Positions 40,547 to 62,046 of a stretch of DNA of 64,000 nt are shown here, piece by piece. The notes under the pieces are model-generated. The model was not told the origin of the DNA, ran no database searches, and saw only the letters and a list, made by a program, of their open reading frames with translations. The translations under genes and the position numbers were made by a program. The stretch comes from Gammaproteobacteria bacterium (GTDB taxonomy: Bacteria > Pseudomonadota > Gammaproteobacteria > JAJPIJ01), in contig JAJVHZ010000027.1 in assembly GCA_022072255.1 (NCBI GenBank), positions 18,660-82,659 of the forward strand, in the 5' to 3' direction. Positions within the stretch are counted from its first letter, which is position 1; the number at the start of each line of letters is the position of its first letter.

Positions 40547-40567
40547 GCCAAATCTGAACTTCAGATG

Positions 40568-40607
40568 AAAAAAAACTCCTTGACCGCCTGAAGGTAATGA
40601 GTATCAT
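40568..40607 (+). promoter_or_regulatory. sigma70-like promoter of the plus-strand ATPase/kinase operon
   Basis: A-tract, TTGACC (40580-85), 16 nt, TATCAT (40602-07); SD AGGAGG before ATG 40729. Confidence 0.55.
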
Positions 40608-40728
40608 TCCTCATTTATTGTCGATATTGTTTGCATGTTTTGTCTCGGTCGCATCGTTTCGGTTTCGTTCAGTTCACACAAACCCTAGGTGTTCGTTTGA
40701 TTTGTCACTGAGGAGGAGGTGTGTAAGG

Positions 40729-42951: not shown

Positions 42952-42954
42952 AAG

Positions 42955-44130: not shown

Positions 44131-44148
44131 TTCGGGTCCATTTAAGGA

Positions 44149-47166: not shown

Positions 47167-47674
47167 ACCCAAACGCAGGGAGGAGATCGAGTCTGAAATC
47201 AAGGAGCGGGAGGAGGATCTTGAGGAGCGAGCGGAGAAAGAAGGTCAGGTTGTGGAGGATAAGGTTCACATCAGTGATGCAGCCAAAGAGCTGAACCTTG
47301 CTGGGACGGAAGATGGCGCCGACCAGATCAAGGAGTTGGTCACTGAGGGGGGTGTTGAGGTGGACGAGGAGTTTGAGCGGCAGGACGACGAACTCAGTGA
47401 GGTTCATGAGGAATGTAAGGAAGTTGAGGAAGAGCTCACTGACCGGGCTGAGAAGAGCTCTGAGGATGCGGAGAAGACGGCGGATGCCGCTGAGAAGGTT
47501 GAGACGGAAAAAGCTAGCCGTCAGTTGGATGAAGCAGCTAAAGCAGCCGATGAGGACAGTCAGTATTTGGAGGCTGCTGAGGAGGAACAGGAGTCGATCC
47601 GGGAAAAGAGTGAGGAGACTCAGGCTGAGCATCGTGAAGTTTTGGAGCATACCGAGATTGAGTTCAAGGAGTAG
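47150..47674 (+). CDS. extremely acidic all-helical protein
   Basis: 174 aa dominated by E/D; no Cys cluster or TM segment; start overlaps the ATPase 3' end. Confidence 0.75.
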   Translation: MAIGDKPKRREEIESEIKEREEDLEERAEKEGQVVEDKVHISDAAKELNLAGTEDGADQIKELVTEGGVEVDEEFERQDDELSEVHEECKEVEEELTDRAEKSSEDAEKTADAAEKVETEKASRQLDEAAKAADEDSQYLEAAEEEQESIREKSEETQAEHREVLEHTEIEFKE

Positions 47675-47678
47675 GCCG

Positions 47679-48236
47679 ATGGATCTTCTTGATCGAACTC
47701 GTGAGGTAATGGAGCGTTATCGCCGGGCTTTGGCGGAGTTACGGCGTCCACCGAAATTCGGTTCAAAGGGTGGGATCTTCGCTTTTGCCGAGGAAGAAGA
47801 GCAACGCCGGGTAAAGGATGAGTATCTTCATGCGCGCCAGGAGTTGAAATTCTGCGTGGATGAATTGCGGGAGGTTGTGTCGCTTCTAGAAATGGATGAT
47901 GAGATTTTGGACGACATGCCTTTGGTTACCAGGCCTGCCAAGGAACTTTTGGATCGAGCTGCGGAAGTTAACCGCAAGGATTTGGAGAGGGCTCAGGAGT
48001 TGCTCGATGCGGCTGGGAACGCGCTTGGTGAGTCGGAGGCGGGTGAGAGTCCCTTCCCTGTTTTTGGATCGGGCCGGATTTGGGATGGGTGGCCGATGGA
48101 GATTGTTGAACCTTGTGATGAACCAATTGCACCTCCGGATCCCTCTCTTGGATCGGCGTCAAATGAACCTGAGAGTTTGGAAAGTCTTTTGGGGCGTAGG
48201 AAGCGTTTGCCTGGAGAAAAGGCCAAGGAGTCGTGA
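47679..48236 (+). CDS. hypothetical helical protein
   Basis: ATG 47679 four nt after the previous stop; GTGA overlap with the WD40 gene. Confidence 0.6.
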   Translation: MDLLDRTREVMERYRRALAELRRPPKFGSKGGIFAFAEEEEQRRVKDEYLHARQELKFCVDELREVVSLLEMDDEILDDMPLVTRPAKELLDRAAEVNRKDLERAQELLDAAGNALGESEAGESPFPVFGSGRIWDGWPMEIVEPCDEPIAPPDPSLGSASNEPESLESLLGRRKRLPGEKAKES

Positions 48237-50215
48237 TGGTTGGAGCACAGCCGGTTCTGGATGATTCATTGTCTCAGGCGTTGGGGCCGAGGTCTGTGGT
48301 TCTCGCGTTGGCGGGTCCGTCGGCGGGGATTCATTTGTGGCCTGATGTGTTGGGACCTTTTCCAGGACGGGCTGTTGCTGAGATTGACTCGGTGTATTCA
48401 GTATATGCGGTAGCAGTGTCACCGCTTGCGCGTTTTATCGCATGGGGACATCGGAGTGGTGAAAATGGTTTTGGGGGAGGTGAGGTCTGTTATGTATCGG
48501 CCACCGAGCCTGGAATTGTTAAGACTGTCGGGCGTCATCGTGGGGGGTGTTTCTCGGTTTCCTTTTTGACTGAGGACACCCTGGTATCTGGAGGGGCGGA
48601 CGGTCATCTTCGGATCTGGGACTTGCGGTTGGGCCAGCAGGTCCGGGAAGTTTCCATTAACCGTAGGTGTGCTTTTTCGGTTTGTGCGCTCTCTCCTCGT
48701 CTCTTGGCGGTGCTGGGTGCGGATAGGAATGAAGGGGAGTTATCCCTTTGGAATGTGGGTTCCCTTTCCTTGCGTTATAAGGGGTCGCGAGTTCTTTTTC
48801 CACGAGGGTATGGATTGATTGAGCTCGTTTTTGATGAGGCAGAAATTTGTTTGTATCATCCCTGTGAGGATGGTTCGATCGCATCGTATGTGATTGATGG
48901 AAATGCTGTTCACGAGAAGTGTGTTCCGAGACATTCCAGTTTTTTCTATGCTGTTGGCTCGATCCAGGGTGCTGGTCTTGTTTCGGCTGGGTATGAAGAT
49001 TGTATGGTTCGAGTGGGGCCTCCGGGTGCTGTGGTCTATGAAATGCAGGTGCCTGGAAATCCATTGGTTTGCGTGCCGGTTCCGCCAGATTTTTTTCTTT
49101 TATTTGATCAGGATCGGAGGGGTCAAGTCTGGCGGTGGGTGAATCAGAGGTTGGAGCTGGTTCTGACACTGCCGGGATGGGGTGTGCGTGGTGTGGCGTC
49201 GATGCCAGGGAAAGCTCTGAGGCGGTGGGAACAGGAGGCAGTGGCATCCAGGAGGAAAAACTTGCTTTCCCAAGTTGATAAGGCCCAGAACGCCGGGAAC
49301 TGGGAGGAGTTGTATAACCTGTCAGTACCTCTTGCGGAGCTGGGTTTAATGGAGGATTCCTGGATGGCTCGTGCTAAAGTTGCTGATGCAAGGCAACAAT
49401 CTTTGGAATTGTTACAGGCTTTGCTGGCTCTTGAACGTCTCCTTCCTTCGGGGTCCCGTTGGCATAAGGAGGTTCATTACCGATTAGGTGATTTACTTGA
49501 AGTGTTAAACGAACCTCATGAAGCCATCGTACGGTATAGGGTTCTTCTTTCCGGGCCGGATGTACATAGAGACTTGGTGGAGAGGATTCATCGTCTGGAA
49601 GGGATTCCTGTGGCAGCTTCTGTTGGTTGCATGATTAGAAATGACCTTGCGGCAGCGGATGCTTTGGTGAGGTTTGTTCAGGTAAGTTCTCTATTGAATA
49701 GGCCGGTATGTGGTTTGTTTCCGTTGTTGGACTCGACCTTTCCTATCAATTATAGGCACCACCTTTCTTTTGAGGAGTTCTCTGGTGCGTTCTCGTTATC
49801 GTGTGATCGGGTGGGTTTGTGTGTGCGGTTGGATGGGCCATTCGAAGGGATTGAGTGCTTGGTGACTACCAGAAAGAGGGTGTGTTGGTGGCTGGTTGCA
49901 CCATCTGCAGGGACTTCTTCCAAGGTCCCTCTTGGAATGGCTGTGGTTATCGTCCTTCAAAGGAGGGAGGGAATCACGAAGTTGGCGCCTGTGGCTGTGT
50001 TGGACCCATCCCGGTGTGGGATTGATGAGGTGGAACCTACCAGGTTCAACTGTCGATTCGAGGAAATGTGGCGCTTGCTTCATGAAAGCGAGGATGTGGG
50101 TCTCTGGTTTGATTCCGTTTGTTTGAGCATTGATTCCGCCTTAGAGGATCTCCTGCGTGGGCAAGATCCTGGGCTTCCCTCCAGTCCCGTCAAGGAGTTT
50201 GAGGTCTTACCATGA
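48233..50215 (+). CDS. WD40 beta-propeller plus TPR-like protein
   Basis: GRHRGGCFSVSFLTEDTLVSGGADGHLRIWD, LVSAGYEDCMVR; helical VHYRLGDLLEVLNEPHEAIVRY. Confidence 0.75.
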   Translation: MMVGAQPVLDDSLSQALGPRSVVLALAGPSAGIHLWPDVLGPFPGRAVAEIDSVYSVYAVAVSPLARFIAWGHRSGENGFGGGEVCYVSATEPGIVKTVGRHRGGCFSVSFLTEDTLVSGGADGHLRIWDLRLGQQVREVSINRRCAFSVCALSPRLLAVLGADRNEGELSLWNVGSLSLRYKGSRVLFPRGYGLIELVFDEAEICLYHPCEDGSIASYVIDGNAVHEKCVPRHSSFFYAVGSIQGAGLVSAGYEDCMVRVGPPGAVVYEMQVPGNPLVCVPVPPDFFLLFDQDRRGQVWRWVNQRLELVLTLPGWGVRGVASMPGKALRRWEQEAVASRRKNLLSQVDKAQNAGNWEELYNLSVPLAELGLMEDSWMARAKVADARQQSLELLQALLALERLLPSGSRWHKEVHYRLGDLLEVLNEPHEAIVRYRVLLSGPDVHRDLVERIHRLEGIPVAASVGCMIRNDLAAADALVRFVQVSSLLNRPVCGLFPLLDSTFPINYRHHLSFEEFSGAFSLSCDRVGLCVRLDGPFEGIECLVTTRKRVCWWLVAPSAGTSSKVPLGMAVVIVLQRREGITKLAPVAVLDPSRCGIDEVEPTRFNCRFEEMWRLLHESEDVGLWFDSVCLSIDSALEDLLRGQDPGLPSSPVKEFEVLP

Positions 50216-52956
50216 TGGGGGGTGATTCACTCCCCGGTGATGAAACGGAGACAACGTCGCATTCCGTTTTGGATGCTGTCTGTTTTTCGCCACCTGTCCT
50301 TCTTTCCAGCCTTCCACCGTTGCAGCTGGGGACGATCTTGGGGGGGCGTTATCGTATTGATCGATTCTTGGGGCGTGGTGGTGTTGGGGCGGCCTATCAG
50401 GCCACCGATTTAAAGTGGAATGGAACTTTGGCGCTCAAAGTGGTGATCGAGGAGGGTGGGGGCCTGAGTGGGTGGCTTGCTTATGAATACTCGGTTTTTC
50501 AGCGGGTTGAACAGAATGCACATATCTTGAGGTTGTACGAGCCGGTTCTTGTCGAGCATGAGGGTTGCCCCCTTTCGCTGCTTCCGATGGAGTGGGCCGA
50601 TGGGGGGAGTTTGCGGGACTGGATTCAGAACCGTGCGTCATCTCCATTTCACCTAGAGAATGTATTGGATCTCTTCATCGAGGCTTGTAGGGGCGTCGAG
50701 TCCTTGCACAAGGTGCATGTGGCTCATCTTGATATCAAGCCCGAAAATCTCTTGCTTGTTCGAGGCCGGTTGAAGGTGGCGGACCTTGCATCGGCGCGTG
50801 TGGATGCGCCTTCCTTCATGAAAGGGTTTGAACAGCTTCCATCAAGGAGACGGGGGACTCCCGCGTACCGGAGTCCGGAGCAGTTCGTGGCCGCTCGCGA
50901 AGAAGATATCGACCATCGCTCAGACATCTATAGTTTGGGCGTGGTTCTTTATGAGCTGCTGGATGGCTCCAGGCCCTTTGACGGTGACGAGGCGGAACTG
51001 AGAGACAAGCACTTGAGTTTGCCGCCGCCAGTGATTCGGAGGGATTCCGGGGATTGGTGGCCGATTACGAGAAGGTGTTTGTCGAAGGGTGTCCTCGAGC
51101 GGTATCAGAGTGTTGAGGAATTACTTCGTGATGTGGACCGTAGAAGGCGTGGGTTGCCTGGTGCCGGTGATGTGGCCTGTAAGGTCTGCGGGCACCTCAA
51201 TCGAGATGAGCGGGCTTTGACCTGTGCGGTATGTGGAACGAATCTGGGAGAGGTTTTTCGAGAGTGTCCGAAATGTGGGACGAAAAATCGGCTGGATGTT
51301 GAGATTTGCCGTGTTTGTGGAACCTCCGTGGCGTGGTTGTTCTTTGGCCTCGATCGGATGCAGAGGATTCGTCAATCTTTTGATAGTGATCCTTGCCAGG
51401 CGGTTACGGATTTGGAGGAGATCCTCCGGCTGAAGATTCCAAGTGTCGAGAATGAAGCCTTGGATTTGTTGCGGGTTGTTCGAGGGCGGATGGAACAGAT
51501 CTCAGGGGACCTTGAGGAGGGGGAGCGTGCTTGGCGGCTTGGGAGGGTTGTGGATGCGTTGGATTCCTGGAACCGGGTCTTATCGGTTTTTCCACACCAT
51601 CGTTCCGTCTGTGAAAAGGTCCTTCAGGCGCAGGTGGTTCTTGCGGAAATTGAGTCTCTAAGGCATACCGCTGAGTCTTGCCTTGAGTCGGCGCGGTTTG
51701 GCGAGGGTCAAGAGCTATTGCGTGCCGGGCTCGCTCGTTTTCCTGGGGCTGATGAACTCCGTTCTCTTCTTGCTCAGGTTCCAGTTTGTCAGGATCGGTA
51801 CAGGAAGGCGTTTGCGGCGGCCAGGAATCACGCTTCCGCCTTGTCGCTCGCCTTGGCATTGGAGAGTCTTGAGGCAGCCCTTTCAACCTCACCAAAGAGT
51901 GAAGAAGCCCTTCTCCTGCAACACCAGATCCTGGAGAGTGTTAAAAAGGTTGAGGCTCTTTTGGATCAGGCTGCGAAGGACTTCGAAGCCGCGCTCTTTC
52001 CCAAGGCCTTCTCCTGTCTCGAACAGGTCAACAACCTTCAGAAGGATAATTCTCAGATGGATTGCCTGCGGAGCACGGGTGTAGAGAAGCAGGCGGGCTA
52101 TTCCGAGTCGTTTTCACAGGCTTCGGTGGCTTACGATGCGGGAGATCTGGAGGGTTGCCTGAAGACGGTTCAGGATGCGCTCAGTTTCTGTCCTACGTCG
52201 GAGGAGGCGTCGGGTCTTGCTCGTGAGGTTGAGGATCGTTTGGAGTCGTGCCGGGCATTGCTTGAGAGTGTTGCGGTCCATCTAAAAGCCGCTAGATTCC
52301 AAGAGGCTGCTGTCGAATTGAAAACAATCGAGTCTCAATGGGCATTTTGTCCTGGACTTGGCGATCTTAAGAAGAATGCTGACAAGACGAAATGTTCCTA
52401 TGCCGCGTGCATGGAAGCGGCTCGCAAAGCGCTGGGAAAGTGGGATCGCAATGGTTTCTTTGAAGCGGTCAGTGGAGCCCTGAGTCTTTGCCCTGACTCG
52501 GTGGAGGCCAAGGATCTGGCTAAGAGCCCGCCCCCGGTACCTCCTCCCCCGGTGGATTTGAGTTGGCTTTTTATCCTGGTTGGCTGGGGTGGCCTGATTG
52601 CCGCTGTGTGCTGGTTGGTGTACTCGCTTGTGATGTCTTTGGCTGCAGGCGTGTGGAAGGTGTGGTTGGTCACCCTGGAGGATCCTTTGCCTCTTTTGTT
52701 GTCCTTTCTTTTCTTGTCGGTCATCACGGGGATAGTGGGTTCTGTTCGGAGTTCCAACGCTCTTTTTTTCGAAAGGTTCGTCACGGCTTTCATATTGCCA
52801 TTTGCGGTCAGCGGCGTGATTGTTGGGTTCGGTGTCGGCATAATGCTATGCCAAAAGCTTCTTGAGTGGGATAACGCCAGTTCTTTCATTGGAGGACTGG
52901 TTGCAGCGAACGTGAGCGCCCTTGTACTTCTCATTGTAACTTTTCGGTCAAGGTAA
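50212..52956 (+). CDS. Hanks-type Ser/Thr protein kinase with zinc ribbons, TPR-like region and C-terminal TM anchor
   Basis: LGRGGVGAAY, ALK, HLDIKPEN, ADLA (DFG position), GTPAYRSPEQ, DIYSLG; four CxxC pairs; PPPVPPPP followed by about 4 TM segments. Confidence 0.9.
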   Translation: MMGGDSLPGDETETTSHSVLDAVCFSPPVLLSSLPPLQLGTILGGRYRIDRFLGRGGVGAAYQATDLKWNGTLALKVVIEEGGGLSGWLAYEYSVFQRVEQNAHILRLYEPVLVEHEGCPLSLLPMEWADGGSLRDWIQNRASSPFHLENVLDLFIEACRGVESLHKVHVAHLDIKPENLLLVRGRLKVADLASARVDAPSFMKGFEQLPSRRRGTPAYRSPEQFVAAREEDIDHRSDIYSLGVVLYELLDGSRPFDGDEAELRDKHLSLPPPVIRRDSGDWWPITRRCLSKGVLERYQSVEELLRDVDRRRRGLPGAGDVACKVCGHLNRDERALTCAVCGTNLGEVFRECPKCGTKNRLDVEICRVCGTSVAWLFFGLDRMQRIRQSFDSDPCQAVTDLEEILRLKIPSVENEALDLLRVVRGRMEQISGDLEEGERAWRLGRVVDALDSWNRVLSVFPHHRSVCEKVLQAQVVLAEIESLRHTAESCLESARFGEGQELLRAGLARFPGADELRSLLAQVPVCQDRYRKAFAAARNHASALSLALALESLEAALSTSPKSEEALLLQHQILESVKKVEALLDQAAKDFEAALFPKAFSCLEQVNNLQKDNSQMDCLRSTGVEKQAGYSESFSQASVAYDAGDLEGCLKTVQDALSFCPTSEEASGLAREVEDRLESCRALLESVAVHLKAARFQEAAVELKTIESQWAFCPGLGDLKKNADKTKCSYAACMEAARKALGKWDRNGFFEAVSGALSLCPDSVEAKDLAKSPPPVPPPPVDLSWLFILVGWGGLIAAVCWLVYSLVMSLAAGVWKVWLVTLEDPLPLLLSFLFLSVITGIVGSVRSSNALFFERFVTAFILPFAVSGVIVGFGVGIMLCQKLLEWDNASSFIGGLVAANVSALVLLIVTFRSR

Positions 52957-52997
52957 GGGTTCTTCCCTCCGCCGGGAAATGGTGTCTCGAAGTGTTA

Positions 52998-54662
52998 TCA
53001 GACCCGTTTGAGGTATGCCGCTATTCCTCCGATATTGTCGGCGAGGGTTTGGAGTAGTTCGGTGAGGTGGTTGGCGTATTGTTCGGGTGGGGCGTTGTGT
53101 AGGTGGCCGGGGAGGTTGTCACCGAGGCGGTCAAGGATTTTCTTGGTGAGGGTGATTTTGAGTTGGTGGTCGAGTGGGTTGATGGCTTGGGTGAGGCGGG
53201 TGGTGCGGTAGTCGTGGATGTGTTGGTGTTTGAGGTGGTTGGTGAGGGTATCGAGGATGGTGCGTAGTCCTCCGTGGGTGGGGTGGAGTGCTTCTTGGGT
53301 GGCGGCTCGGATGCCGCCTTGGTTTTGGTAGGCTTGGTCGAGTGTGGGGATGGCTTGGGTGGCGGCCTGCTCCAGGTCTGTTACTACGATGTGGTGGTGA
53401 AGGTGCCGCATGAGGTGGAGATAGAAAGCGGTGATGGTATTGTGGAATTCTTCCTCGTTTTCGGCAGTTATTTTTTCGAGGCGGTAGGTGTTTCGGGCGT
53501 GGTCGTAGTGGTTGCCGACTTCCTTGGCGAGGTTTTCGTCTGAGATTTCGAAGAGTATCTGGTTGAGGAGCCGGTCTGCATCATCCGTTCCCTGGTTTGT
53601 CTGCATCTCCTTAATGATGGGCCAGGTGCTTTCACTTATTTTTCCTGCAGCGATTTCAAAGATGTGTTTCAGGTCGTCGTGGTTTTCGTGGGTGGCCAGT
53701 TGGGCGATCCGGCTTGCTTGGTCAACACTGAGCGTTGTGGAGTTTTCCTTTTGGCGTATGAGGGGTGGCAGGGAGAGGATGAGGCTGTGCAAGTCGGCTC
53801 CGAAGTTCTTCGGGTATTGGCCGGTGTACGTTTGGTGGGTGATGAAGGCTTCCAGGGTACGGCGAGATCTTTCCGTATTGCCTTCGAGGTAGGCGTGTTC
53901 GAGGGTGTTCCAAAATCTTTTCCTGTGGTCCATCAAAATAAGGTTTACCGTTTTGTCGATGGGGGTGCCATTGGTGCTGAGGGATGCCTGGTCCTGATAG
54001 TACCCAGTCTCGAGGGCTGCGATGGCGATGTCGTCGGGGTCGATGGTGGTTTCGATGAGGTCGGCTATGTCGTGGATGGATTGAATCCTCATGTGGTTTT
54101 GGTGTTGAAATCTTTTTTCGCGGATGCGGTCGAGTTCTCGTGGTGTGAGGTTTTCGAGTGAGGGATCGGTGTCGAGTGCGGGGTGGATGAAGTGGGTGAT
54201 GCCTTGTTGGGCTGCTGCTTCGATTTTTTCCGGGAGGTGGTGGACGAGGCGGGTGTGGCCGTTGGGGTCGGCGATGTGGCCTGTGGCGACCATGTTTTGA
54301 GGGAGTGGGACTTGAGTGGCTGCGGAGAGGGCGGCGAGGAAGATGGGGAGGTCTGCCGAGAAACCGCTGATTGCAATGGGGCGGTTTTGGGTGGCGCTGA
54401 CGTTGAGGTTGGCAATACTGATTTCAAATCCGTTGACTGTGATGTTGACCTTTTTTAGGATGCGTTGGACGCATTCGAGGACTGTTTCTTCGATATGTTG
54501 TTGGATTTGAGTGTCCCATTGGGCCGGTCCTGTGATGCGAAGTCTTTCTGTGTTTCCGTCGTTGATGGCTTGGGCTGTTACTTCTGTAATGACGGCGACT
54601 GCTTGAGTACCGGTGGTTACGACAAGGGCGGCTCGAGTTTTGCCGATCGCTTTGGGGGTCAT
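52998..54662 (-). CDS. Lon/S16-type protease domain (no AAA+ module) fused to C-terminal repeated domain (D2)
   Basis: ISGFSADLPIFLA..TGHI..LPEKIEAA; Ser and Lys 44 residues apart as in the Lon dyad; ATGA overlap at 54659-54662. Confidence 0.7.
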   Translation of the reverse strand: MTPKAIGKTRAALVVTTGTQAVAVITEVTAQAINDGNTERLRITGPAQWDTQIQQHIEETVLECVQRILKKVNITVNGFEISIANLNVSATQNRPIAISGFSADLPIFLAALSAATQVPLPQNMVATGHIADPNGHTRLVHHLPEKIEAAAQQGITHFIHPALDTDPSLENLTPRELDRIREKRFQHQNHMRIQSIHDIADLIETTIDPDDIAIAALETGYYQDQASLSTNGTPIDKTVNLILMDHRKRFWNTLEHAYLEGNTERSRRTLEAFITHQTYTGQYPKNFGADLHSLILSLPPLIRQKENSTTLSVDQASRIAQLATHENHDDLKHIFEIAAGKISESTWPIIKEMQTNQGTDDADRLLNQILFEISDENLAKEVGNHYDHARNTYRLEKITAENEEEFHNTITAFYLHLMRHLHHHIVVTDLEQAATQAIPTLDQAYQNQGGIRAATQEALHPTHGGLRTILDTLTNHLKHQHIHDYRTTRLTQAINPLDHQLKITLTKKILDRLGDNLPGHLHNAPPEQYANHLTELLQTLADNIGGIAAYLKRV

Positions 54663-55309
54663 TTGTTCCACTGGAGTCGTAGGGTTCCGTTTTCGATCCC
54701 GGGAAAAACTTCGAGGAGGATCTCGCCGCCAAGTAATGGGGTGGTGGATGTGGGTTTGAGGTCGCTTGGTTGGGTTGCGGCTGCGGCGGGTAGGGGTTCA
54801 GCGGGGTGTGCCAGGCTCCAGAGGAGTTGTTCGGGTTCGAGTTTGTTGGACCAGATTTCGCGTCCGTTGGCGAAGGTGAGTGTGTACTCGCTGGGGTTTA
54901 TGCTTTGGAGGTCGTGGGGTTTTCCTGGGTGGAGTTGGATTTCCCAGTGTTGGCCTTCCGTGTTTTGGAGTGTGAGTTCGCAGGATGTGGTGTCGGGTGG
55001 TTCGGGGGATGGGATGGTTTCGCCTTGTATCATTTCGAGGAGTGCGTCGAGTTGGTCGTCGGGGATATCCTCGAATTCGCCGGTTTCGATTTTGTGGAAG
55101 ATGTTTTCGGCGAGGTCGGGCGCAAGGTCGCTGTTGGTGAGTACTTCGTGGAGGAATGTTTGGAAGTTTCGGTATCCTTCTTGGTATTCGGGTTGGTTGC
55201 GAAGGGAACAGATCTGGTCAAGGGCTTCGGCGATGGCCTTCTTGGGGTCAGGTGCGTCGTAGGCTTTGGTGAGGATGGCGAGGAAGTAGAGGTTTTGTTG
55301 GTCGGTCAT
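54659..55309 (-). CDS. hypothetical protein (helical N-domain, beta-rich C-domain); candidate partner of the HTH protein
   Basis: ATGA overlaps on both sides; C-terminal LLGGEILLEVFPGIENGTLRLQW. Confidence 0.7.
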   Translation of the reverse strand: MTDQQNLYFLAILTKAYDAPDPKKAIAEALDQICSLRNQPEYQEGYRNFQTFLHEVLTNSDLAPDLAENIFHKIETGEFEDIPDDQLDALLEMIQGETIPSPEPPDTTSCELTLQNTEGQHWEIQLHPGKPHDLQSINPSEYTLTFANGREIWSNKLEPEQLLWSLAHPAEPLPAAAATQPSDLKPTSTTPLLGGEILLEVFPGIENGTLRLQWNK

Positions 55310-56439
55310 TTTTGGTGTTCCTTGCGGGTTGGTTTGGTGGTGAGGGCTTTGATGAGGTCTTCTTGGTTGATTCCCGCTTCGTTAATGGATTCTTGGAATA
55401 AGGGGTTTTGGCTGATGACGGTGACGACGTTTTGCCATAGGTCGGGGATTCGTGGGTTTTCGCTTTCGTACCATTGGGTTCCGGCGATTTCGCTCATGGT
55501 GGCGAGTGGGATGTTGTAGGTTTCGGCGATTCGTCTGAGGTTGAATGTTCCTTCTGTGAGTTGTCGCAGACACATCTGGATTAGTGAGGGGAGTAATTCT
55601 TTTCCGAATCTTTTGAGTGTGGGGCGTAGGCGTTCGAAGTTTTCGAGTTTTTCTTCGATGACGGCGGTTTCTAGGCGGTGGTGGAGGCCGTCGATGGTGT
55701 TATAGAGTGTTTCTTGGTTGTCGCTAGTGAGGGGGAGGTTTTCGGTGTCGATGTGTTGTGGGAAGCGGAACCTGCCGTCGATTGTTTTTTGGATGGTTTT
55801 TTGGTCAAGTTGTTTTTGGCGGTTGTCTTGAGGGAAGTTTTGTTCGAGCCATTCCCTGATCTTTCTTGCGGTAATGCTTTTGGGGATTCGTAGGTTGATG
55901 GTTCCTTGGGGTGTTTTCCATTGGTATCGTCTTCCGGATGGGTCTTGGATGCGTTGGGCGTCAATGAGTGACAGGCCGTAGTGTCTCCAGACTAAACGTC
56001 CGAGAAGGGTGGCGGTGGTTTGTTCTGCTTCGATTTCTCCGAGTGGGGTGGTTTGGTTTTGTTGGTGGAAGGTGTTGAGGAATGCTTTGTAGTATTTGCG
56101 GCAGTCGACGGGGGGGCGTTTTGTGTCTTCGTGGATTTCGTACCTGGTTCCTGGGAGGGAGATGAATTTGTTGAGTGCGCGGTCGTGGGCTAGGTCGGCG
56201 GCTTCACTGTTGAGTGGTTCATTGCGTATCTGGGCTTCACGTAGTTGATTGAGATAATCCGACAGGATCAGGTTCCTCTTGCTTTTGTATTGAAAGATGC
56301 GGCGTGTGGTGAGGAAGCATTCGAGGGCGGCGGTGTCCGAGTTTTGGACGATTTGTTCGATGAGTTGGTGGGTGGGGAGTGAGCGATATTCTCTTGGGAT
56401 GAGGATGTGTATGGTTGCGGTATTGTTTGTGGTGGTCAT
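55306..56439 (-). CDS. hypothetical protein with C-terminal helix-turn-helix
   Basis: FNLRRIAETYNIPLATMSEIAG HTH-like pattern; ATGA overlaps on both sides. Confidence 0.65.
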   Translation of the reverse strand: MTTTNNTATIHILIPREYRSLPTHQLIEQIVQNSDTAALECFLTTRRIFQYKSKRNLILSDYLNQLREAQIRNEPLNSEAADLAHDRALNKFISLPGTRYEIHEDTKRPPVDCRKYYKAFLNTFHQQNQTTPLGEIEAEQTTATLLGRLVWRHYGLSLIDAQRIQDPSGRRYQWKTPQGTINLRIPKSITARKIREWLEQNFPQDNRQKQLDQKTIQKTIDGRFRFPQHIDTENLPLTSDNQETLYNTIDGLHHRLETAVIEEKLENFERLRPTLKRFGKELLPSLIQMCLRQLTEGTFNLRRIAETYNIPLATMSEIAGTQWYESENPRIPDLWQNVVTVISQNPLFQESINEAGINQEDLIKALTTKPTRKEHQK

Positions 56440-57023
56440 GTTTTTTTCTGGATGGCGTTTCGTAGTGTCATGAGGAGGCGTGGGTGTTGGGCGAGGGCGT
56501 GTGGGAAGTTGATGCGTAGGCGCATGTAGTTGTCTTCGGTGAGGTCTGGGGGGAGGATGTGTTGCCATTTTTGTCCGTATTCGATGGGGATGTCGTACTT
56601 CTTTTCGGTAAGGATTTGTCCCCAGTATTCAGTGACGCGGACGTGTATGAGGTTGTTGGCGATTTTTTCGGCCATGTGTGTGGCAAATTCTTTGAGGACG
56701 CCATAGAGTCCTCCGTTTCTTCCTGTTTGTGCTCGTAGGAATGCTTCTTTGTGGCCGTCGTGTCCGTAGATGGCGTTGAGGTTGTGGATGGCTTGTCCCC
56801 AGTTGATGGTGGGATGGACTTCAAGAGGATTCTTTAGGTCGTGGAGGTGGTTGGTCAGGTGGGCGTGGAATTGTTCCATGACGGTTTTGAATTCGTCCCA
56901 GTCGTCGACGCTTGGTTTGGTGTGGTGGAAGGTGTTGAGGGCTCGGTCTCTGAGTTGAAAGATGGCGTCATAGGTTTGTTCTGGGGAGATGGTTTCGAGG
57001 AAATCGTCGAGGTTGGTTCCCAT
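56436..57023 (-). CDS. hypothetical protein, repeated domain copy D3
   Basis: DDWDEF, GQAIHNLNAIY, GRNGGLYGVL, ILPPDL. Confidence 0.75.
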   Translation of the reverse strand: MGTNLDDFLETISPEQTYDAIFQLRDRALNTFHHTKPSVDDWDEFKTVMEQFHAHLTNHLHDLKNPLEVHPTINWGQAIHNLNAIYGHDGHKEAFLRAQTGRNGGLYGVLKEFATHMAEKIANNLIHVRVTEYWGQILTEKKYDIPIEYGQKWQHILPPDLTEDNYMRLRINFPHALAQHPRLLMTLRNAIQKKT

Positions 57024-57051
57024 GACTTCGATCTGTTTTTCGTGTTTTGTT

Positions 57052-57642
57052 TTACTGGCGGCTGAAGAGGCTGGTGGTTCGTCTTAGGGCTTCGGTGTAG
57101 CCTCGGACCAGTTCTTGGTAGTCGCTGGCGTATTTCTCTGGTTGGTCGGTACGGATGTACGGTGGCAGGTTGGGGCCGCAGGCTTGGAAGAGTTGGCGGA
57201 TGATGTTGACTTTTTCGTTCCATTCGGTGGGTTTGACGTGGGCGTCGAAGGCTTCGCGAATGTATCGTTCGACGGATTCGGTTTTAAGAGCGTCGGCGAT
57301 TCTGTCGAGGACGCCTCGGAGTCCTGAGTTGGTTCCTTCGCTGGCGTCGCGGAAGGCGGTCATGAGGTTTCCTTGGTGACGCCGGTAGACTTGTTCAAGG
57401 ATTTCCTTGGCGCGTCCGATGGCTTCGATGCGGTTGATTTGAGCACCTCGCGCCACGCAAGTTGTGTAGTGGTGGACGTAGTACTGTCCGATCATGTCAG
57501 AGAAATCGTCAAAGTCTCGGACGGTGTTCGAGCGGCAAATGAATCCCATACGTGCCTCGTCATGAGGGATTCCAACTCTCTGCGCGATCTCTCTTTCCTG
57601 AAGCGCCTTTGTCAGACTCTGAAAAGAACCCATAAGATCCAT
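57052..57642 (-). CDS. hypothetical protein, repeated domain copy D4
   Basis: RDFDDF, GRAKEILEQVY, GTNSGLRGVLD, NLPPYI, PEKYA; SD GGAGG. Confidence 0.75.
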   Translation of the reverse strand: MDLMGSFQSLTKALQEREIAQRVGIPHDEARMGFICRSNTVRDFDDFSDMIGQYYVHHYTTCVARGAQINRIEAIGRAKEILEQVYRRHQGNLMTAFRDASEGTNSGLRGVLDRIADALKTESVERYIREAFDAHVKPTEWNEKVNIIRQLFQACGPNLPPYIRTDQPEKYASDYQELVRGYTEALRRTTSLFSRQ

Positions 57643-58315: not shown

Positions 58316-58431
58316 GCCTCTCCCACGCAGCAACACCTCTATAAAAAACTTCACCACCACCCCAAAGAAACAACACACGCCATAGGGGGGGGTTTTTTGT
58401 CGGGGGTGTGGGGGTGGTGAAGGGGGGACGC

Positions 58432-58923
58432 CTATTTGGCGTCCTGTTGGATTAGTGTCCAGGTGTGGTGTGAACTGTTCCAGTTGTTGGCTCGTTGGAG
58501 CCGTTTCCTGCATCTTTTCAGGAAGTGTTGGCGGCGGGTTCCGGTTGCTGGTTTGTATTGGGGGTTGCATTTGAAGCAGTTCCAGAACACGGTCCCTCTT
58601 GGGGGATCAATGGCAGGTTGAAGAGGTAGTCCGCAGTGGCACCACGCGTGGAAGGTGAGATATATTTCAGTGTTCTCTCTTGTCCTACTCACCTCTACTG
58701 GCTCTGTTTTCCATATGATCAATTCCCAGATAATCTTTCGTATCTCGTTTTTGATTTCATGCAGTCCCGTGTACATGAAGTATTTGTTGAAGGAGTATGG
58801 GTCTCTGTCGGTTACACTCCTCCAGATCAATTCCTGTAATTCTTCGATTTTTTTGATGAACGTTCCGAGGGTGCTCTTCACGTCCTGGGTTTTTTTGTTG
58901 GTTCTTTCGGTTTCTCCTTTCAT
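58432..58923 (-). CDS. fused A+B protein, tandem unit 3 (coiled coil plus CxC/CxxC domain)
   Basis: MKGET start with SD GGAGG; WCHCG..FWNCFKC..ATG..R..FLK; 163 aa equals 80+83. Confidence 0.7.
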   Translation of the reverse strand: MKGETERTNKKTQDVKSTLGTFIKKIEELQELIWRSVTDRDPYSFNKYFMYTGLHEIKNEIRKIIWELIIWKTEPVEVSRTRENTEIYLTFHAWCHCGLPLQPAIDPPRGTVFWNCFKCNPQYKPATGTRRQHFLKRCRKRLQRANNWNSSHHTWTLIQQDAK

Positions 58924-59129
58924 GTTTTTCTTGCCTCCGATCAGTTTCGATGTATTTTCCTTTTTGTGCTGTGTCTTGTTCTGTAAAGGAGATACGGTTT
59001 CTCCTTGTTTTCCAATCACAATGGTGTCAATAGTGGGTGGGGTTCAGCCCGGTCTTGGAATGGGCCCAAACAACCATTGCTTTTTCCCCTTCCCAAAGGG
59101 GGGTTGCGATATCTGCGGAGGGAGACCCC

Positions 59130-59381
59130 CTAAATGGGGTCCTCCTCTAGCAGTTGTTCCGCGTACCATACGGCATATTGGTCTCCGACTTTATCCATAT
59201 ACTCCTGGAATGATTTCAGGAATTGACGGCGGATCGGTCCGGTTGCTCGCGTAAAATGCGGGAAGCACTGAAAGCAATTCCAGAACAGGAATCCCTTTTC
59301 GGCGTTGTAGGCTGGCTCGACTCGCATTCCACAAACGCATTTGCCGGTGAATCGGGAACCAATTCCATAGGGGAAAGTCAT
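59130..59381 (-). CDS. small CxC/CxxC putative Zn-binding protein B, unit 2
   Basis: RFTGKCVCG..EPA..FWNCFQCFP..ATG..RRQFLK; ATGA overlap. Confidence 0.72.
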   Translation of the reverse strand: MTFPYGIGSRFTGKCVCGMRVEPAYNAEKGFLFWNCFQCFPHFTRATGPIRRQFLKSFQEYMDKVGDQYAVWYAEQLLEEDPI

Positions 59382-59620
59382 GCTCTCACCTCCTGGTTTG
59401 CTGCTGCGTTCAGGAATACCATTTCACTCCAGAGTACGCGGATTTTGGTTTCGATCTCTTTCATTCTCATGTGGACATACTGCCCCTGGTCTTCCGGGCC
59501 GGATTCTCCGCTTCTTGCGACGATGGATTCCTTGAGTCTTCTGGCTTCTGCCGCGAGATCGACAAGACGTTTTTCAAAGTCCCGCATTTGTCTTTTGATG
59601 CTTTTGTTTTTTCCTTTCAT
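59378..59620 (-). CDS. 80-aa coiled-coil protein A, unit 2
   Basis: SD GGAGG; MKGKNKSIKRQMRDFEKRLVDLAAEARRL..EVRA matches the ArdC C-terminal extension. Confidence 0.72.
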   Translation of the reverse strand: MKGKNKSIKRQMRDFEKRLVDLAAEARRLKESIVARSGESGPEDQGQYVHMRMKEIETKIRVLWSEMVFLNAAANQEVRA

Positions 59621-59860
59621 GTTTTCGTACCTCCGTTCTGTTTCAATATTCTTCGTTTCTTTTCAGTCCAGACCGGCTTGAAAGCCGGTGACTGAAGAGC
59701 CTGATTTCGTTTCGCCTTTCTATTCACGCGAAGCGTGGTGGCGTCAATCTGTGGCTTATGGGGATCGGTTCCGATTTCAGAACCGATCCAAGGAAGCCAC
59801 GGTTTCCCATTCGGCTTTTGGTTCCAAATGGGTTTGGCCCGATGTGTGCAGAGAGACCCC

Positions 59861-60112
59861 CTAAGTGGGGGTTTCTTGAATCCGTTCCAGAACATACTGG
59901 GCGCCGTCCCAATCTCCGGCGCGGATCATCTGCTTTCTGAATCTCTTCAGAAAGCGCCGCCGACGGCTTCCGGTTGCCTTTGTGTAAATGGGGAAGCAGT
60001 GGAAGCAGTTCCAGAACACTACTCCGAGCCCGGAATGAAAGGCGGGCTCGACGGTTCCACCACAACAACACTTTCCAGTGAAGCGGGCGTAATGCGGGTA
60101 AGGTGAGATCAT
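59861..60112 (-). CDS. small CxC/CxxC putative Zn-binding protein B, unit 1
   Basis: MISPYPHYARFTGKCCCG..FWNCFHCFP; 83 aa, same length as unit 2; ATGA overlap at 60109-60112. Confidence 0.72.
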   Translation of the reverse strand: MISPYPHYARFTGKCCCGGTVEPAFHSGLGVVFWNCFHCFPIYTKATGSRRRRFLKRFRKQMIRAGDWDGAQYVLERIQETPT

Positions 60113-61299
60113 GCTCTCACCTCCGGGTACCCTTCCGCGTTTAGTCGAACCGTTTCTCTCCAGAGTTTGCGGATTTGTGCCTCGATTTCTCCAATCCTCA
60201 TGTAGAGGTATTTCCGGTGGTCTTCCGGGTCTGGTTCTCCTCTTCGTACAAAGAGGCTTTCTTGGAGTCTTCCGGCCTCTGCCGCGAGTTCGGCTAGCCT
60301 GATCTCCAAGTCCTGCATTTGGTTTTCGATACTTTTGGTTTCTCCTTTCATGTTTTCGTACCTCCGATATGTTTCGATTTGTTTCGATTCTTCCCGGTCC
60401 GAACCGGCTTCTAGGCCGGGGACGGAAGAGCATGATTTCTTAGTGAGTGCCTGGTCTGAGCCATGGAGGCCGGCGAGGATTTCTCTCGCCGTGTCCCGGA
60501 TCGCTTCCAGGGAGTGATAAAGTGTCTCTTTGTCTCCCTGGTAGATTTGGATGTAATCGCTCGATGAGGTGCTGGTGTCCAAACCGATTACCGAACAGAC
60601 CACGAAGGCTACGGCTTCGGCTTCCGTTTCTTTCACTGTCTTGGATGGGTTTTTCTCTCCCGGTTTCTGGTGTAGAATTTCATGCGCGAACTCATGCACC
60701 AAAACAGAGAATTCCTCAGCGGCGGGAAGGCCGGGCCGAATCAGGATTTTTCCGCCTGATGAGGCCCCATCGGCGAGCCCTAAGTCCGGCGTGGATTCGA
60801 TGGCGATTCCTCTCTTCCGAATGGTCGCAACCAAGGAAGAAAGGAGTCCGCCTGGATCGCCCCGGACGCGGGCGAATTCCGGAAGGGGTTTTCCCTCTGT
60901 CTGGTTGATGTCAAAAACGTGGGCCGGACGGAATCCGAAAAGGATCTCTTCCTCGGAATCGGATTCCGTCGATTTCCTATTCCGGACGATGGGGGCAAGG
61001 ATGAGAATTCCTTTCTCACCTTTCCGGACGTTTCTTCCCAACGATTTCCAAGTTTGAAACCCGGCCACGCGAGAGGCATCGGGTTTCTGTGTGCCGATCA
61101 AGAAAACATTCCTCAGGCTGTACCGGGTAAATCTCGCCATAGTGGAAAGGTATTCCTTGAGCGTCTGGCTCTTTCCGTTCTCCAGATCCTGCGCGAGCCT
61201 TTCGAGTGCCTGATCGATCAAGCCGTGGGCGCGGGTTACTTTGGGGTGGGGCGCGCGGGGAGGGGCGCGGATGAGTGGCAAAGCAGCGGGGGAGTTCAT
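60109..61299 (-). CDS. ardC: ArdC-like anti-restriction protein (ssDNA-binding domain plus HExxH zincin) with 80-aa C-terminal extension
   Basis: RYSLRNVFLI..VAGFQTWKSLGRNVRKGEKGILILAP, HVFDINQTEG, LVHEFAHEILH, ETEAEAVAFVVC. Confidence 0.85.
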   Translation of the reverse strand: MNSPAALPLIRAPPRAPHPKVTRAHGLIDQALERLAQDLENGKSQTLKEYLSTMARFTRYSLRNVFLIGTQKPDASRVAGFQTWKSLGRNVRKGEKGILILAPIVRNRKSTESDSEEEILFGFRPAHVFDINQTEGKPLPEFARVRGDPGGLLSSLVATIRKRGIAIESTPDLGLADGASSGGKILIRPGLPAAEEFSVLVHEFAHEILHQKPGEKNPSKTVKETEAEAVAFVVCSVIGLDTSTSSSDYIQIYQGDKETLYHSLEAIRDTAREILAGLHGSDQALTKKSCSSVPGLEAGSDREESKQIETYRRYENMKGETKSIENQMQDLEIRLAELAAEAGRLQESLFVRRGEPDPEDHRKYLYMRIGEIEAQIRKLWRETVRLNAEGYPEVRA

Positions 61300-61773: not shown

Positions 61774-62046
61774 CTCCCGAAAGAGACCGCTGAATAAGCC
61801 AGCGGGGAGTCCTGTGACTGGGCCGGGTCTCCAATGAGTGAAGGTTTTTTTCCATTTTTTCCTTTTACCTTTACGGCGGCACGATCGATAAACTTTTAGG
61901 GCCGCGCCCGACCCCGAAGGGGGAAAAGTTTACGTATCGGGCCGCCGTTTGAAGAAAAAATGGAAACAAAATCGAGCGAAGCCGGAGACACGGTCCACCA
62001 AACTGGACTCCCCGATGGCACAAATGTCGGCGGTCTCTTTCGGGAG
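61774..62046. repeat. ~270-bp nested inverted repeat (giant stem-loop) in non-coding DNA
   Basis: Perfect paired arms of 17, 9, 6, 13, 8 and 9 bp arranged concentrically (coordinates in findings). Confidence 0.85.

What the first reader, a model, noticed from the sequence alone, without database searches (positions are those of the whole stretch)
58432..60440. Triplicated two-gene unit (coiled-coil A + CxC/CxxC B) with three different fusion states
Seen: MKG starts at 60351, 59620 and 58923 (periods 731 and 697 bp), each with a GGAGG SD. Unit 1: A is the in-frame tail of ArdC and B is separate. Unit 2: A (80 aa) and B (83 aa) are separate, with an ATGA overlap. Unit 3: the ATGA is lost and a net +1 nt (48 vs 47 nt from GAGGTG to the first Cys codon) fuses A and B into 163 aa. 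B keeps CxCG..PA..FWNCFxC.P....ATG..R..FLK despite heavy divergence. Inference: a diversifying array in the leading region next to ardC, possibly anti-defence proteins or toxin-antitoxin pairs.
Basis: partly seen in the sequence, partly recalled or inferred. Interest (0 to 1): 0.7.

Follow-up and report, generated by a model that had tools for sequence, protein, structure and literature searches.

The report
Amplified ArdC partner genes, bL31-like
A mobile element from sludge bacteria carries three diverged copies of a two-gene unit beside its anti-restriction gene ardC; natural gene fusions tie the three proteins together, and one of them looks like a distant relative of ribosomal protein bL31.

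Summary
On the minus strand, ardC runs in frame into A1. It is followed by B1, A2, B2 and a fused A3::B3 gene. Repeat periods are 731 and 697 nt.

The array is not an assembly artefact. The same DNA is 100% identical in at least 10 independent metagenome contigs. Related elements carry one unit (ardC with a TAA stop) or two units.

All copies appear to be kept by selection. dN/dS is 0.05-0.14 for A1, B1 and B2. It is 0.29-0.41 for the fused A3::B3, measured against two 91%-identical variants that keep the fusion.

Two things are new.
- B belongs to a small, undescribed family of 4-Cys zinc-ribbon proteins that recurs next to ArdC in distant elements. Its closest known relative is ribosomal protein bL31, with the same CxC-x18-CxxC spacing and 33% identity over 60 aa. 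It does not reach the Pfam or NCBIfam L31 models.
- A is a helical hairpin. A distant A-like gene overlaps the ardC start in an Anaerolineae genome.

Best reading: ArdC, A and B form one complex within the ardC-linked module, presumed to act in establishment or anti-defence, with the paralogues as specificity variants. The biochemical function is untested. A toxin-antitoxin pair is disfavoured, and decay of units 2-3 is rejected.

The parts
60361..61299 (-). ardC core (aa 1-313): N-terminal ArdC ssDNA-binding domain plus a HEFAH metalloprotease-type region
   Evidence: Pfam ArdcN scores 44.8 bits, E 1.8e-11, above the cut-off. Peptidase_M78 and DUF6782 hits are weak and below cut-off. PHROG matches are 'anti-restriction protein' at 5.9e-13 and 'metallo-protease' at 1e-3. 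The core is 90% identical to the 313-aa ArdC of L001, which ends with TAA.
60352..60360 (-). Fusion joint TAC-GAA-AAC. The former ardC stop codon TAA is TAC here, so ardC reads in frame into A1.
   Evidence: L001 reads GGAGGTAAGAAAATATG and the window reads GGAGGTACGAAAACATG. The same 396-aa fusion is present in the two-unit lineage L021. The internal GGAGG + ATG is kept, so free A1 could still be translated.
60109..60351 (-). A1: 80-aa helical-hairpin module, C-terminal tail of ArdC (pI 5.5)
   Evidence: Sequence. dN/dS is 0.05 against the L018 orthologue. Charge.
59861..60112 (-). B1: 83-aa 4-Cys zinc ribbon plus two helices. It is the most bL31-like copy (pI 9.7) and has an ATGA overlap with A1.
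   Evidence: Sequence. The AF2 model has pLDDT 90.2 and pTM 0.78. dN/dS is 0.08. A bL31 HMM scores it 21.8 bits, at the top of 5,195 ORFs. For the B1 orthologue P0002 (96% identical to B1), BLASTP against E. coli RpmE gives 33% identity over 60 aa, pairwise E 2e-9.
59621..59860 (-). Spacer 1: strongly structured intergenic region that contains the copied ardC 3' end and the SD of A2
   Evidence: RNA fold is -88.4 kcal/mol, z = -5.1, with 0 of 200 shuffles as good. It is about 90% conserved in the two-unit lineage but shows no covariation.
59378..59620 (-). A2: 80-aa helical hairpin, separate gene (pI 9.9)
   Evidence: Sequence. Against the L040 variant, 14.5 non-synonymous and 2.5 synonymous changes cluster at residues 21-37. 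These changes convert A2 towards the A1 sequence, which indicates gene conversion.
59130..59381 (-). B2: 83-aa zinc ribbon (pI 6.5) with an ATGA overlap with A2. It is the copy closest to the single B of one-unit relatives (84%).
   Evidence: dN/dS is 0.10-0.14.
58924..59129 (-). Spacer 2, with a degraded copy of the ardC 3' end and the GGAGG of unit 3
   Evidence: Alignment. No unusual folding, z = -0.1.
58432..58923 (-). A3::B3: 163-aa in-frame fusion of a helical hairpin and a zinc ribbon. It is exactly colinear with A (80 aa) plus B (83 aa).
   Evidence: The ATGA is lost and there is a net +1 nt. Variants P0050 and P0052, 91% identical, keep the fused ORF and all four Cys. dN/dS is 0.29-0.41, with binomial p of 0.002-0.011 against neutrality.
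59857..59873 (-). Short hairpin with the B1 stop codon in its loop. Equivalents follow B2 (about 59124-59141) and B3 (about 58426-58444).
   Evidence: The three sequences are ACCCCCACTTAGGGGGT, GACCCCATTTAGGGGGTC and GGACGCCAAATAGGCGTCC. Pairing is kept in unit 3 by changes on both sides. In L015 it is followed by a T run.

Best explanation
The array is a tandem amplification of a two-gene accessory module of the ardC operon on a mobile element. The element carries a Replic_Relax nickase-type gene and is found in sludge and bioreactor bacteria, probably Chloroflexota-like.

A is an 80-aa antiparallel helical hairpin. B is an 83-aa zinc ribbon with CxC-x18-CxxC spacing and two C-terminal helices. 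B is most likely a distant derivative of the exchangeable ribosomal protein bL31.

I propose that A is an adaptor that binds both ArdC and B. ArdC, A and B would then act as one complex during establishment of the element in a new cell. B would be the part that recognises a nucleic acid or a host protein. The three diverged A-B pairs would be specificity variants kept by selection.

Shown:
- the anatomy;
- the 1, 2 and 3 copy series;
- the single-base origin of ArdC::A1;
- the frameshift origin of A3::B3;
- purifying selection on every copy;
- recurrent ArdC-B linkage and one distant ArdC-A linkage;
- the bL31 resemblance.

Inferred:
- physical ArdC-A-B complex formation, from the fusions and the translational coupling;
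- timing early after entry;
- target recognition by B;
- an anti-defence role.
For: 1. Fusions act as 'Rosetta stones'. ArdC::A1 arose by TAA>TAC. A3::B3 arose by loss of ATGA plus +1 nt. Both are fixed in many samples and in diverged variants.
2. ATGA overlap with a GGAGG inside the A 3' end couples B translation to A.
3. Synteny: one-unit relatives have ArdC(313)-A(80)-B(83).
4. In distant elements (ArdC 43-58% identical), B lies right after or near ArdC: L026, L033, L035, L052, L055, L056.
5. An A-like 79-aa gene overlaps the ardC start in L033. hhalign gives 88.6% probability, and it is the only outside hit of the A HMM among 5,195 ORFs.
6. Selection: dN/dS is 0.05-0.14 for A1, B1 and B2, and 0.29-0.41 for A3::B3, with p 0.002-0.011.
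7. Diversification: paralogues are 30-57% identical. A/B dS is 0.8-0.9 against 0.29 for ardC, and there is A1-to-A2 gene conversion.
8. Charge patterns are reciprocal: A1 -2.4 with B1 +7.7, and A2 +4.6 with B2 -0.4.
9. B fold: the AF2 model has pLDDT 90.
10. bL31 link:
   - bL31 is the only coherent family hit in the whole PDB sequence set for three different B profiles, E 0.02-0.08.
   - hhalign gives 81-85% probability, score 33.5 against a maximum of 17.3 in 100 column shuffles.
   - A 7-sequence bL31 HMM ranks B proteins 1-25 of 5,195 ORFs.
   - BLASTP gives 33% identity over 60 aa.
11. Metatranscriptome contigs cover all three units.
12. ArdC is an anti-restriction protein needed in the recipient, and the role of its protease domain is unknown (PMC7213743).
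Against: - There is no experimental or structural evidence of an ArdC-A-B complex. The AF2 model of A3::B3 is poor (pLDDT 63, pTM 0.44), so it says nothing about A-B packing.
- Most distant B homologues have no detectable A, so B can work without A.
- B does not hit the Pfam or NCBIfam L31 models.
- Foldseek finds no significant match, and bL31 is not among the 50 matches listed.
- 'Leading region' and early expression are not shown. No sigma-70-type promoter was found.
- The RNA evidence is low-depth, unstranded contigs that could include DNA carry-over.
- No match to any known anti-defence, defence or toxin-antitoxin family was found.
Confidence: 0.45

Rival explanations
1. Ribosome-directed module. 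B is a functional mimic of bL31. It docks on the 50S central protuberance in place of, or in competition with, host bL31. Through A it brings ArdC to the ribosome, or it simply re-tunes subunit association. The result would favour translation of the incoming element or blunt translation-targeting defences. The paralogues would fit ribosomes of different hosts.
For: The bL31 resemblance runs colinearly over residues 7-59 and includes all four Cys, C..C.P.(F/Y)T and ATG.R..RF.KRF. bL31 is loosely bound and exchangeable, and true bL31 genes are carried by viruses (PMC6375957). rpmE is also on 117 PLSDB records, 14 of them conjugative. The only protein pulled down by inactive R388 ArdC from P. putida was a YjgA-like 50S-associated protein (PMC7213743).
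Against: B is predicted to be compact, with two extra helices, rather than extended like bL31. The hallmark CHPFYTG is CFP.F in B. The C-terminal bL31-like motif is absent from most distant B family members. B fails the curated L31 models and Foldseek. A is unrelated to YjgA.
Confidence: 0.15
2. Toxin-antitoxin or addiction pairs. A neutralises a toxic B, or the reverse, and the pairs stabilise the element.
For: These are two small genes with an ATGA overlap. Pairs have opposite charges. Toxin-antitoxin genes are common in leading regions (PMC11541004).
Against: No toxin or antitoxin family matches in Pfam, NCBIfam or PADLOC. A is fused to ArdC and A3 to B3, and these fusions are kept under selection. 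That is hard to reconcile with differential antitoxin turnover. Distant B genes stand alone without A. The conserved partner of B is ArdC, not A.
Confidence: 0.1
3. Operon regulators. B is an RNA- or DNA-binding zinc ribbon that, like bL31 on its own rpmE leader, represses translation or transcription of the ardC operon by binding the structured spacers. A modulates it.
For: bL31 autoregulates rpmE through its leader (title and abstract of PMC7297116, listed). Spacer 1 is unusually structured (z -5.1) and more conserved than the coding DNA downstream of it. B1 and B3 are very basic.
Against: Spacer 2 is not structured. There is no covariation. Three diverged regulators for one short operon lack an obvious rationale. 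Fusion of A to ArdC is not explained.
Confidence: 0.1
4. Units 2 and 3 are decaying duplicates with no function of their own. The fusion in unit 3 is a frameshift scar.
For: Unit 3 is the most diverged copy. Its fusion arose by a frameshift-type change.
Against: The A3::B3 ORF is intact in three variants that differ at 27-37 sites. dN/dS is 0.29-0.41 (p 0.002-0.011). All four Cys and FWNCF.C are kept. B2 has dN/dS of 0.10-0.14. The stop-codon hairpin of unit 3 is kept by paired changes.
Confidence: 0.03

Closest known systems
Ribosomal protein bL31, zinc-binding type A (RpmE; Pfam Ribosomal_L31)
   Same: Cys spacing is identical, CxC-x18-CxxC: B1 has C15, C17, C36, C39 and E. coli has C16, C18, C37, C40. 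The alignment is colinear over about 55 residues. The B1 orthologue P0002 is 33% identical to E. coli RpmE. Shared motifs are P.Y near the N terminus, C..C.P.(F/Y)T and ATG.R..RF.KRF. Both are small and basic. bL31 is the only coherent PDB family hit.
   Different: B does not reach the curated L31 models. FWNCF.CFP stands in place of CS.CHPFYTG. B has two extra C-terminal helices and a predicted compact fold. Foldseek gives no match to bL31 chains. B is encoded beside ardC in 1-3 diverged copies rather than as a housekeeping gene. Ribosome binding is untested.
ArdC anti-restriction proteins (R388/pSa ArdC; PMC7213743)
   Same: The upstream gene has the ArdcN domain and a HExxH region in the same order. 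It sits next to a relaxase-type gene on a mobile element.
   Different: No A or B partner is mentioned in the parts of the R388 ArdC paper that I read. Here ArdC carries an 80-aa helical-hairpin tail through loss of its stop codon, and it is followed by zinc-ribbon genes.
Anti-defence islands in plasmid leading regions (Samuel et al. 2024, PMC11541004)
   Same: These are small, fast-evolving, uncharacterised genes clustered with a known anti-restriction gene. They lie near a candidate origin hairpin and all face one direction.
   Different: The leading-region position is not demonstrated. There is no match to the Pfam, NCBIfam, PHROG or PADLOC libraries; no dedicated anti-defence library was available. 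The in-array series of fusion states is, to my knowledge, not described there.
Virus- and plasmid-borne ribosomal protein genes (Mizuno et al. 2019, PMC6375957)
   Same: Both involve a mobile element carrying a relative of an exchangeable ribosomal protein. bL31 is among those found in viral contigs, and rpmE is on plasmids.
   Different: Those are bona fide, closely host-like bL31 genes. B is a remote, remodelled relative forming its own family and is tied to ArdC.

Membership tests
bL31 (Ribosomal_L31) | Four-Cys zinc site with CxC ... CxxC spacing of type A bL31 | tested here: met
   B1 has C15/C17/C36/C39 and E. coli RpmE has C16/C18/C37/C40. The ribbon aligns without gaps.
bL31 (Ribosomal_L31) | Score above the curated family threshold (Pfam PF01197 / NCBIfam) | tested here: not met
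   There was no L31 hit for B1, B2 or A3::B3 at E<=1. There was none in NCBIfam. None of 43 family members hit L31 at E<=10.
bL31 (Ribosomal_L31) | Remote homology by profile methods | tested here: inconclusive
   hhalign gives 81-85% probability. The score is 33.5 against a maximum of 17.3 in shuffles. The PDB-wide best family is bL31 at E 0.02-0.08. The reverse HMM ranks B first, at 21.8-24.7 bits. This supports relatedness, not membership.
bL31 (Ribosomal_L31) | bL31 fold as seen on the ribosome; incorporation into 50S | not testable with these tools
   Foldseek of the B1 model found no significant PDB match, and bL31 is not among the 50 matches listed. Ribosome binding needs experiments.
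ArdC anti-restriction family | N-terminal ArdC ssDNA-binding domain | tested here: met
   PF08401 scores 44.8 bits against a cut-off of 22.6.
ArdC anti-restriction family | C-terminal HExxH metalloprotease domain | tested here: inconclusive
   A HEFAH motif is present in the sequence. Peptidase_M78 and DUF6782 hits are below cut-off. The PHROG metallo-protease match is at 1e-3.
ArdC anti-restriction family | Protection of incoming DNA from restriction | not testable with these tools
   This needs a conjugation or restriction assay.
Type II toxin-antitoxin pair | Two small co-translated genes | tested here: met
   ATGA overlap in units 1 and 2.
Type II toxin-antitoxin pair | Either partner belongs to a known toxin or antitoxin family | tested here: not met
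   No hits in Pfam, NCBIfam or PADLOC.
Type II toxin-antitoxin pair | Toxicity of one partner, neutralised by the other | not testable with these tools
   The stable A3::B3 and ArdC::A1 fusions and the stand-alone B homologues argue against it.
Leading-region anti-defence genes | Position just downstream of oriT on the first-transferred side | tested here: inconclusive
   A 190-nt block that is about 100% conserved, with a 25-nt inverted repeat, lies between the Replic_Relax gene and the operon. It folds as ssDNA with z -6.0. The nick site and transfer direction are unknown.
Leading-region anti-defence genes | Inhibition of a defence system | not testable with these tools

The most novel reading that the evidence does not exclude
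ArdC works on or with the ribosome. B would be a remodelled bL31 that takes the exchangeable bL31 site on the host 50S subunit. A would tether ArdC (ssDNA binding plus protease) to it. Incoming mobile DNA would thereby couple its first transcripts to captured ribosomes, or disarm a translation-linked defence. The three A-B pairs would be tuned to different host ribosomes. This would give the unexplained ArdC protease domain, and the reported pull-down of a 50S-associated protein, a mechanistic home.
Probability: 0.13. Interest if true: 0.85.

Novelty: new variant of a known kind. Interest (0 to 1): 0.6.

Why it matters
ArdC is a widespread anti-restriction protein. Its metalloprotease domain has no known substrate and was dispensable in the one assay done (PMC7213743). 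Here nature has linked ArdC physically to a helical adaptor and, through it, to a zinc-ribbon protein related to an exchangeable ribosomal protein. It has also kept three diverged versions. That gives concrete, testable partners for ArdC. It also gives a ready-made set of natural fusion constructs, and it defines a new small-protein family, about 44 clusters at 50% identity among 1.8 billion proteins, that travels with ArdC in uncultured bacteria. The 1, 2 and 3 copy series with gene conversion is also a clean example of how accessory genes of mobile elements amplify and diversify.

Tried and rejected
- No curated family for A or B: Pfam, NCBIfam, PHROGs and PADLOC scans gave nothing.
- Weak recurrent Pfam hits were judged to be chance. 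SHLD2_C hit 11 of 43 members with best E 0.005, and Zn_ribbon_DnaG hit 3 of 43.
- Foldseek of the good B1 model gave nothing at E < 0.4. It was run against the PDB and against viral models.
- Foldseek of the poor A3::B3 model listed Gfh1 and GreB at E 0.8-2.2. I had considered a split DksA/TraR/Gre-like secondary-channel factor (coiled coil with an acidic tip plus a C4 zinc domain). I dropped it for lack of support.
- A against PDB sequences gave only designed helical proteins.
- A against E. coli YjgA gave 0.2% probability.
- No DNA match to the region and no tblastn match to B1 was found in PLSDB plasmids.
- IMG/VR viral contigs held no B relative.
- The first metagenome scan, with A3::B3, found nothing.
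The allowed 6-row alignment gave a low-confidence model.
- The promoter scan found none, and terminators were not enriched.
- Rfam gave nothing relevant.
- The spacer structure shows no covariation.
- The extreme strand skew of 37.5-57.5 kb is not G-to-A hypermutation confined to unit 3. It is a lineage-wide feature also present in L001.


Full report
**1.

- A 396-aa ORF runs from 61299 to 60109. Its first 313 residues are ArdC-like: Pfam ArdcN scores 44.8 bits, and a HEFAH motif is present. Its last 80 residues are module A1, with the MKG start at 60351.
- B1 (60112..59861, 83 aa) overlaps A1 by ATGA.
- A2 (59620..59378, 80 aa) and B2 (59381..59130, 83 aa) repeat this arrangement.
- A single 163-aa ORF (58923..58432) is colinear with A plus B.

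The repeat finder gives periods of 731 and 697-698 nt and a 300-nt repeat at 75% identity. Each unit also carries about 70-90 nt copied from the 3' end of ardC in front of its GGAGG-ATG.

It is exactly right.

The array is real DNA. Contigs from at least ten different samples are 100% identical to the window across it.

**2. History of the array**

Relatives found through B homologues show a copy-number series.
- The L001-L004 lineage has one unit: ArdC of 313 aa ending in TAA, then A (80 aa) and B (83 aa).
- The L018/L021/L015 lineage has two units. It already has the ArdC::A fusion, and B2 is followed directly by the PDDEXK_18 gene.
- The window lineage has three units.

The ArdC::A1 fusion is a single TAA>TAC change. 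The 6-nt spacer then reads through as codons. The internal SD and ATG are kept, so free A1 may still be made.

The single unit of L001 resembles unit 2 of the two-unit lineage. That makes unit 2 look like the older copy.

Synonymous divergence of A and B between lineages (0.74-0.94) far exceeds that of the adjacent ardC (0.29). Spacer 1 and B1 are close between the window and the two-unit lineage, whereas A2-B2 are far apart. The units therefore evolve by cassette exchange or recombination as well as by duplication.

A variant A2 in L040 differs from the window A2 by 14.5 non-synonymous and 2.5 synonymous changes. These cluster at residues 21-37 and convert the sequence towards A1, which is gene conversion.

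**3. All copies are kept by selection**

| Genes | dN/dS | Source |
|---|---|---|
| A1, B1 | 0.05-0.08 | |
| B2 | 0.10-0.14 | |
| ardC | 0.15-0.18 | |
| A3::B3 | 0.29-0.41 | |

For A3::B3, two variants at 91% amino-acid identity (L040, L041) were found. Both keep the fused frame and all four Cys. The excess of synonymous changes is significant, with binomial p of 0.002-0.011.

The small hairpin holding each B stop codon in its loop is preserved in unit 3 through paired changes.

Metatranscriptome contigs from sludge and biofilm cover all three units. They are low-depth and unstranded, so this is only weak support for expression.

The 'decay product' reading is therefore rejected.

**4. What A and B are**

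*A.* A has no family in Pfam, NCBIfam, PHROGs or PADLOC.
- AF2 predicts two long helices (2-37 and 45-72) joined by a Pro/Asp-rich loop.
- In a 5.8-billion-protein search, A is confined to seven clusters, all 80 aa, all from this element lineage.
- An A-like 79-aa gene overlaps the start of ardC in an Anaerolineae MAG (L033). hhalign gives 88.6% probability. It is the only outside hit of the A HMM among 5,195 ORFs.

*B.* B is part of a wider family.
- An exhaustive HMMER search of 1.84 billion representatives found 44 proteins at E below 1e-3.
- Nearly all are 42-126 aa and share RFTG.C.CG..LE.AY-x5-FWNCF.CFP.
- The AF2 model of B1 is confident (pLDDT 90, pTM 0.78). It shows a zinc-ribbon hairpin followed by two helices.
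- Foldseek finds nothing significant.

**5. The bL31 lead**

Three different B profiles were searched against all PDB sequences. Each returned ribosomal protein bL31 from many species as the only coherent family (E 0.02-0.08).

Further tests point the same way.
- hhalign of the B family against E. coli RpmE gives 81% probability.
- The six close B proteins against a profile of seven zinc-type bL31 sequences give 85% probability. Those bL31 sequences were fetched from public records. The score is 33.5 against a maximum of 17.3 in 100 column shuffles.
- In the reverse direction, the bL31 HMM ranks B proteins 1-25 among 5,195 ORFs.
- BLASTP of the B1 orthologue P0002 against RpmE gives 20/60 identities, pairwise E 2e-9.

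The alignment is colinear from residue 7. All four Cys are in register (CxC-x18-CxxC). It includes C..C.P.(F/Y)T and ATGSRRRRFLKRF against ATGGRVDRFNKRF.

Against membership:
- the curated L31 models are not hit;
- the hallmark CHPFYTG is altered;
- the C-terminal motif is missing from most distant B proteins;
- the predicted shape is compact.

I therefore call B 'bL31-like, probably a distant derivative', not a bL31.

**6. Linkage to ArdC**

Beyond the close lineage, B lies beside or within a few kb of an ArdC gene (43-58% identical) in L026, L033, L035, L052, L055 and L056. It lies near a Replic_Relax gene in L027 and L028. No B relative was found in PLSDB plasmids or IMG/VR viral contigs.

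Together with the two fusions and the translational coupling, this makes ArdC, A and B a functional trio. ArdC is the constant partner, and A is a lineage-restricted adaptor.

**7. Mechanism**

I commit to the following model. A binds both ArdC and B, so that the three act as one complex in the ardC-linked module, presumed to act in establishment or anti-defence. B provides recognition of a nucleic acid or a host protein. The paralogues are specificity variants.

The complex, the timing and the target are inferences, and I put confidence at 0.45.

The reciprocal charges of A1/B1 and A2/B2 hint at pair-specific co-evolution.

Rivals:
- a true ribosome-directed bL31 mimic (0.15);
- a toxin-antitoxin pair (0.10);
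- an operon regulator acting on the structured spacer (0.10);
- decay of units 2-3 (0.03).

The ribosome reading gains a little from the literature. Inactive R388 ArdC pulled down only a YjgA-like 50S-associated protein (PMC7213743). bL31 is exchangeable and is already known on viruses (PMC6375957) and on plasmids. A itself is unrelated to YjgA.

**8. Context and caveats**

The host is uncultured, and the samples are sludge and bioreactor metagenomes. Related loci include an Anaerolineae MAG.

'Leading region' is plausible but unproven. Between the Replic_Relax gene and the operon lies a 190-nt block that is essentially identical between lineages. It contains a 25-nt inverted repeat and folds as ssDNA with z = -6.0.

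No function was tested, and no multimer model could be made.

**9. Verdict**

The finding is real and more interesting than a simple repeat. It is an amplified, diversifying ArdC-partner module in which natural fusions map the interactions, and its zinc-ribbon member is a remote bL31 relative. It is a new variant within the known theme of accessory and anti-defence genes around ardC. The mechanism remains open.

Noticed in passing
window 37500-57500 (also L001 12000-19000): There is extreme strand asymmetry. The + strand is G 0.34, C 0.19, T 0.29, A 0.18. At third codon positions, GC skew is +0.22 to +0.78 and AT skew is -0.30 to -0.69 on the + strand, for genes on both strands. It is therefore mutational, not transcriptional. 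It resembles the G+T-rich heavy strand of vertebrate mtDNA and suggests long single-stranded exposure of one strand, as in rolling-circle, strand-displacement or transfer replication. The boundaries are sharp, near 37.5 and 57.6 kb.
   Followed up: partly
window 61790-61980 (inverted repeat 61873-61897 / 61924-61948): A non-coding block between the Replic_Relax gene and the ardC operon is about 100% identical between lineages whose ardC differs at dS 0.29. It holds a 25-nt inverted repeat and folds as ssDNA at -34.7 kcal/mol, z = -6.0. It is a candidate oriT, single-strand origin or ssDNA promoter.
   Followed up: partly
window 59621-59865: The B1-A2 spacer folds far better than shuffles (z = -5.1). 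It contains a hairpin of 7 + 12 paired bases (window 59746-59805). It is about 90% conserved in the two-unit lineage although the A2/B2 coding DNA next to it is highly diverged. There is no covariation to test the structure.
   Followed up: partly
window 56436-57642, minus strand: Two adjacent genes of 196 and 195 aa are tandem paralogues (27% identity over 147 aa) of unknown function. They are conserved in the one-unit relatives, and L001 holds a third, weaker copy.
   Followed up: partly
L027-L034, L052, L056 (neighbours of distant B genes): Small genes recur around B in other elements. One is a protein of about 90-117 aa with the motif GRF.(I/V)S(I/V)W.N. Another is a small protein with E.Q.SL.RA.RPELDP.F or AE.PDLADP. 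In L028, L029 and L032 the latter is fused to the C terminus of B. None has a Pfam match.
   Followed up: partly
L034 6001 and 7057; proteins P0008, P0027, P0047: B-family duplication occurs elsewhere too. L034 has two B genes about 1 kb apart in one MAG contig. Three family members carry two zinc-ribbon repeats in one polypeptide.
   Followed up: no
L058-L061 (contig JGI1356J14229_10000009): Four identical B loci are spaced exactly 108,817 bp apart on a 406-kb contig. This looks like a concatemeric assembly of a circular element of about 109 kb.
   Followed up: no
PLSDB search with E. coli RpmE: Genuine rpmE (bL31) or ykgM-type genes lie on 117 plasmid records, 14 of them typed as conjugative. 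Examples are an 87-kb Citrobacter plasmid and a 51-kb Pseudomonas plasmid from activated sludge. Some large records are probably chromosomes or chromids.
   Followed up: no
window 48233-52956, plus strand: A WD40-like protein (660 aa) is followed by a Ser/Thr protein kinase with a zinc ribbon and TPR (914 aa). Both lie inside the skewed segment. A 1005-aa protein at 44149-47166 has a weak FtsK/SpoIIIE P-loop match and is a possible DNA translocase of the element.
   Followed up: no
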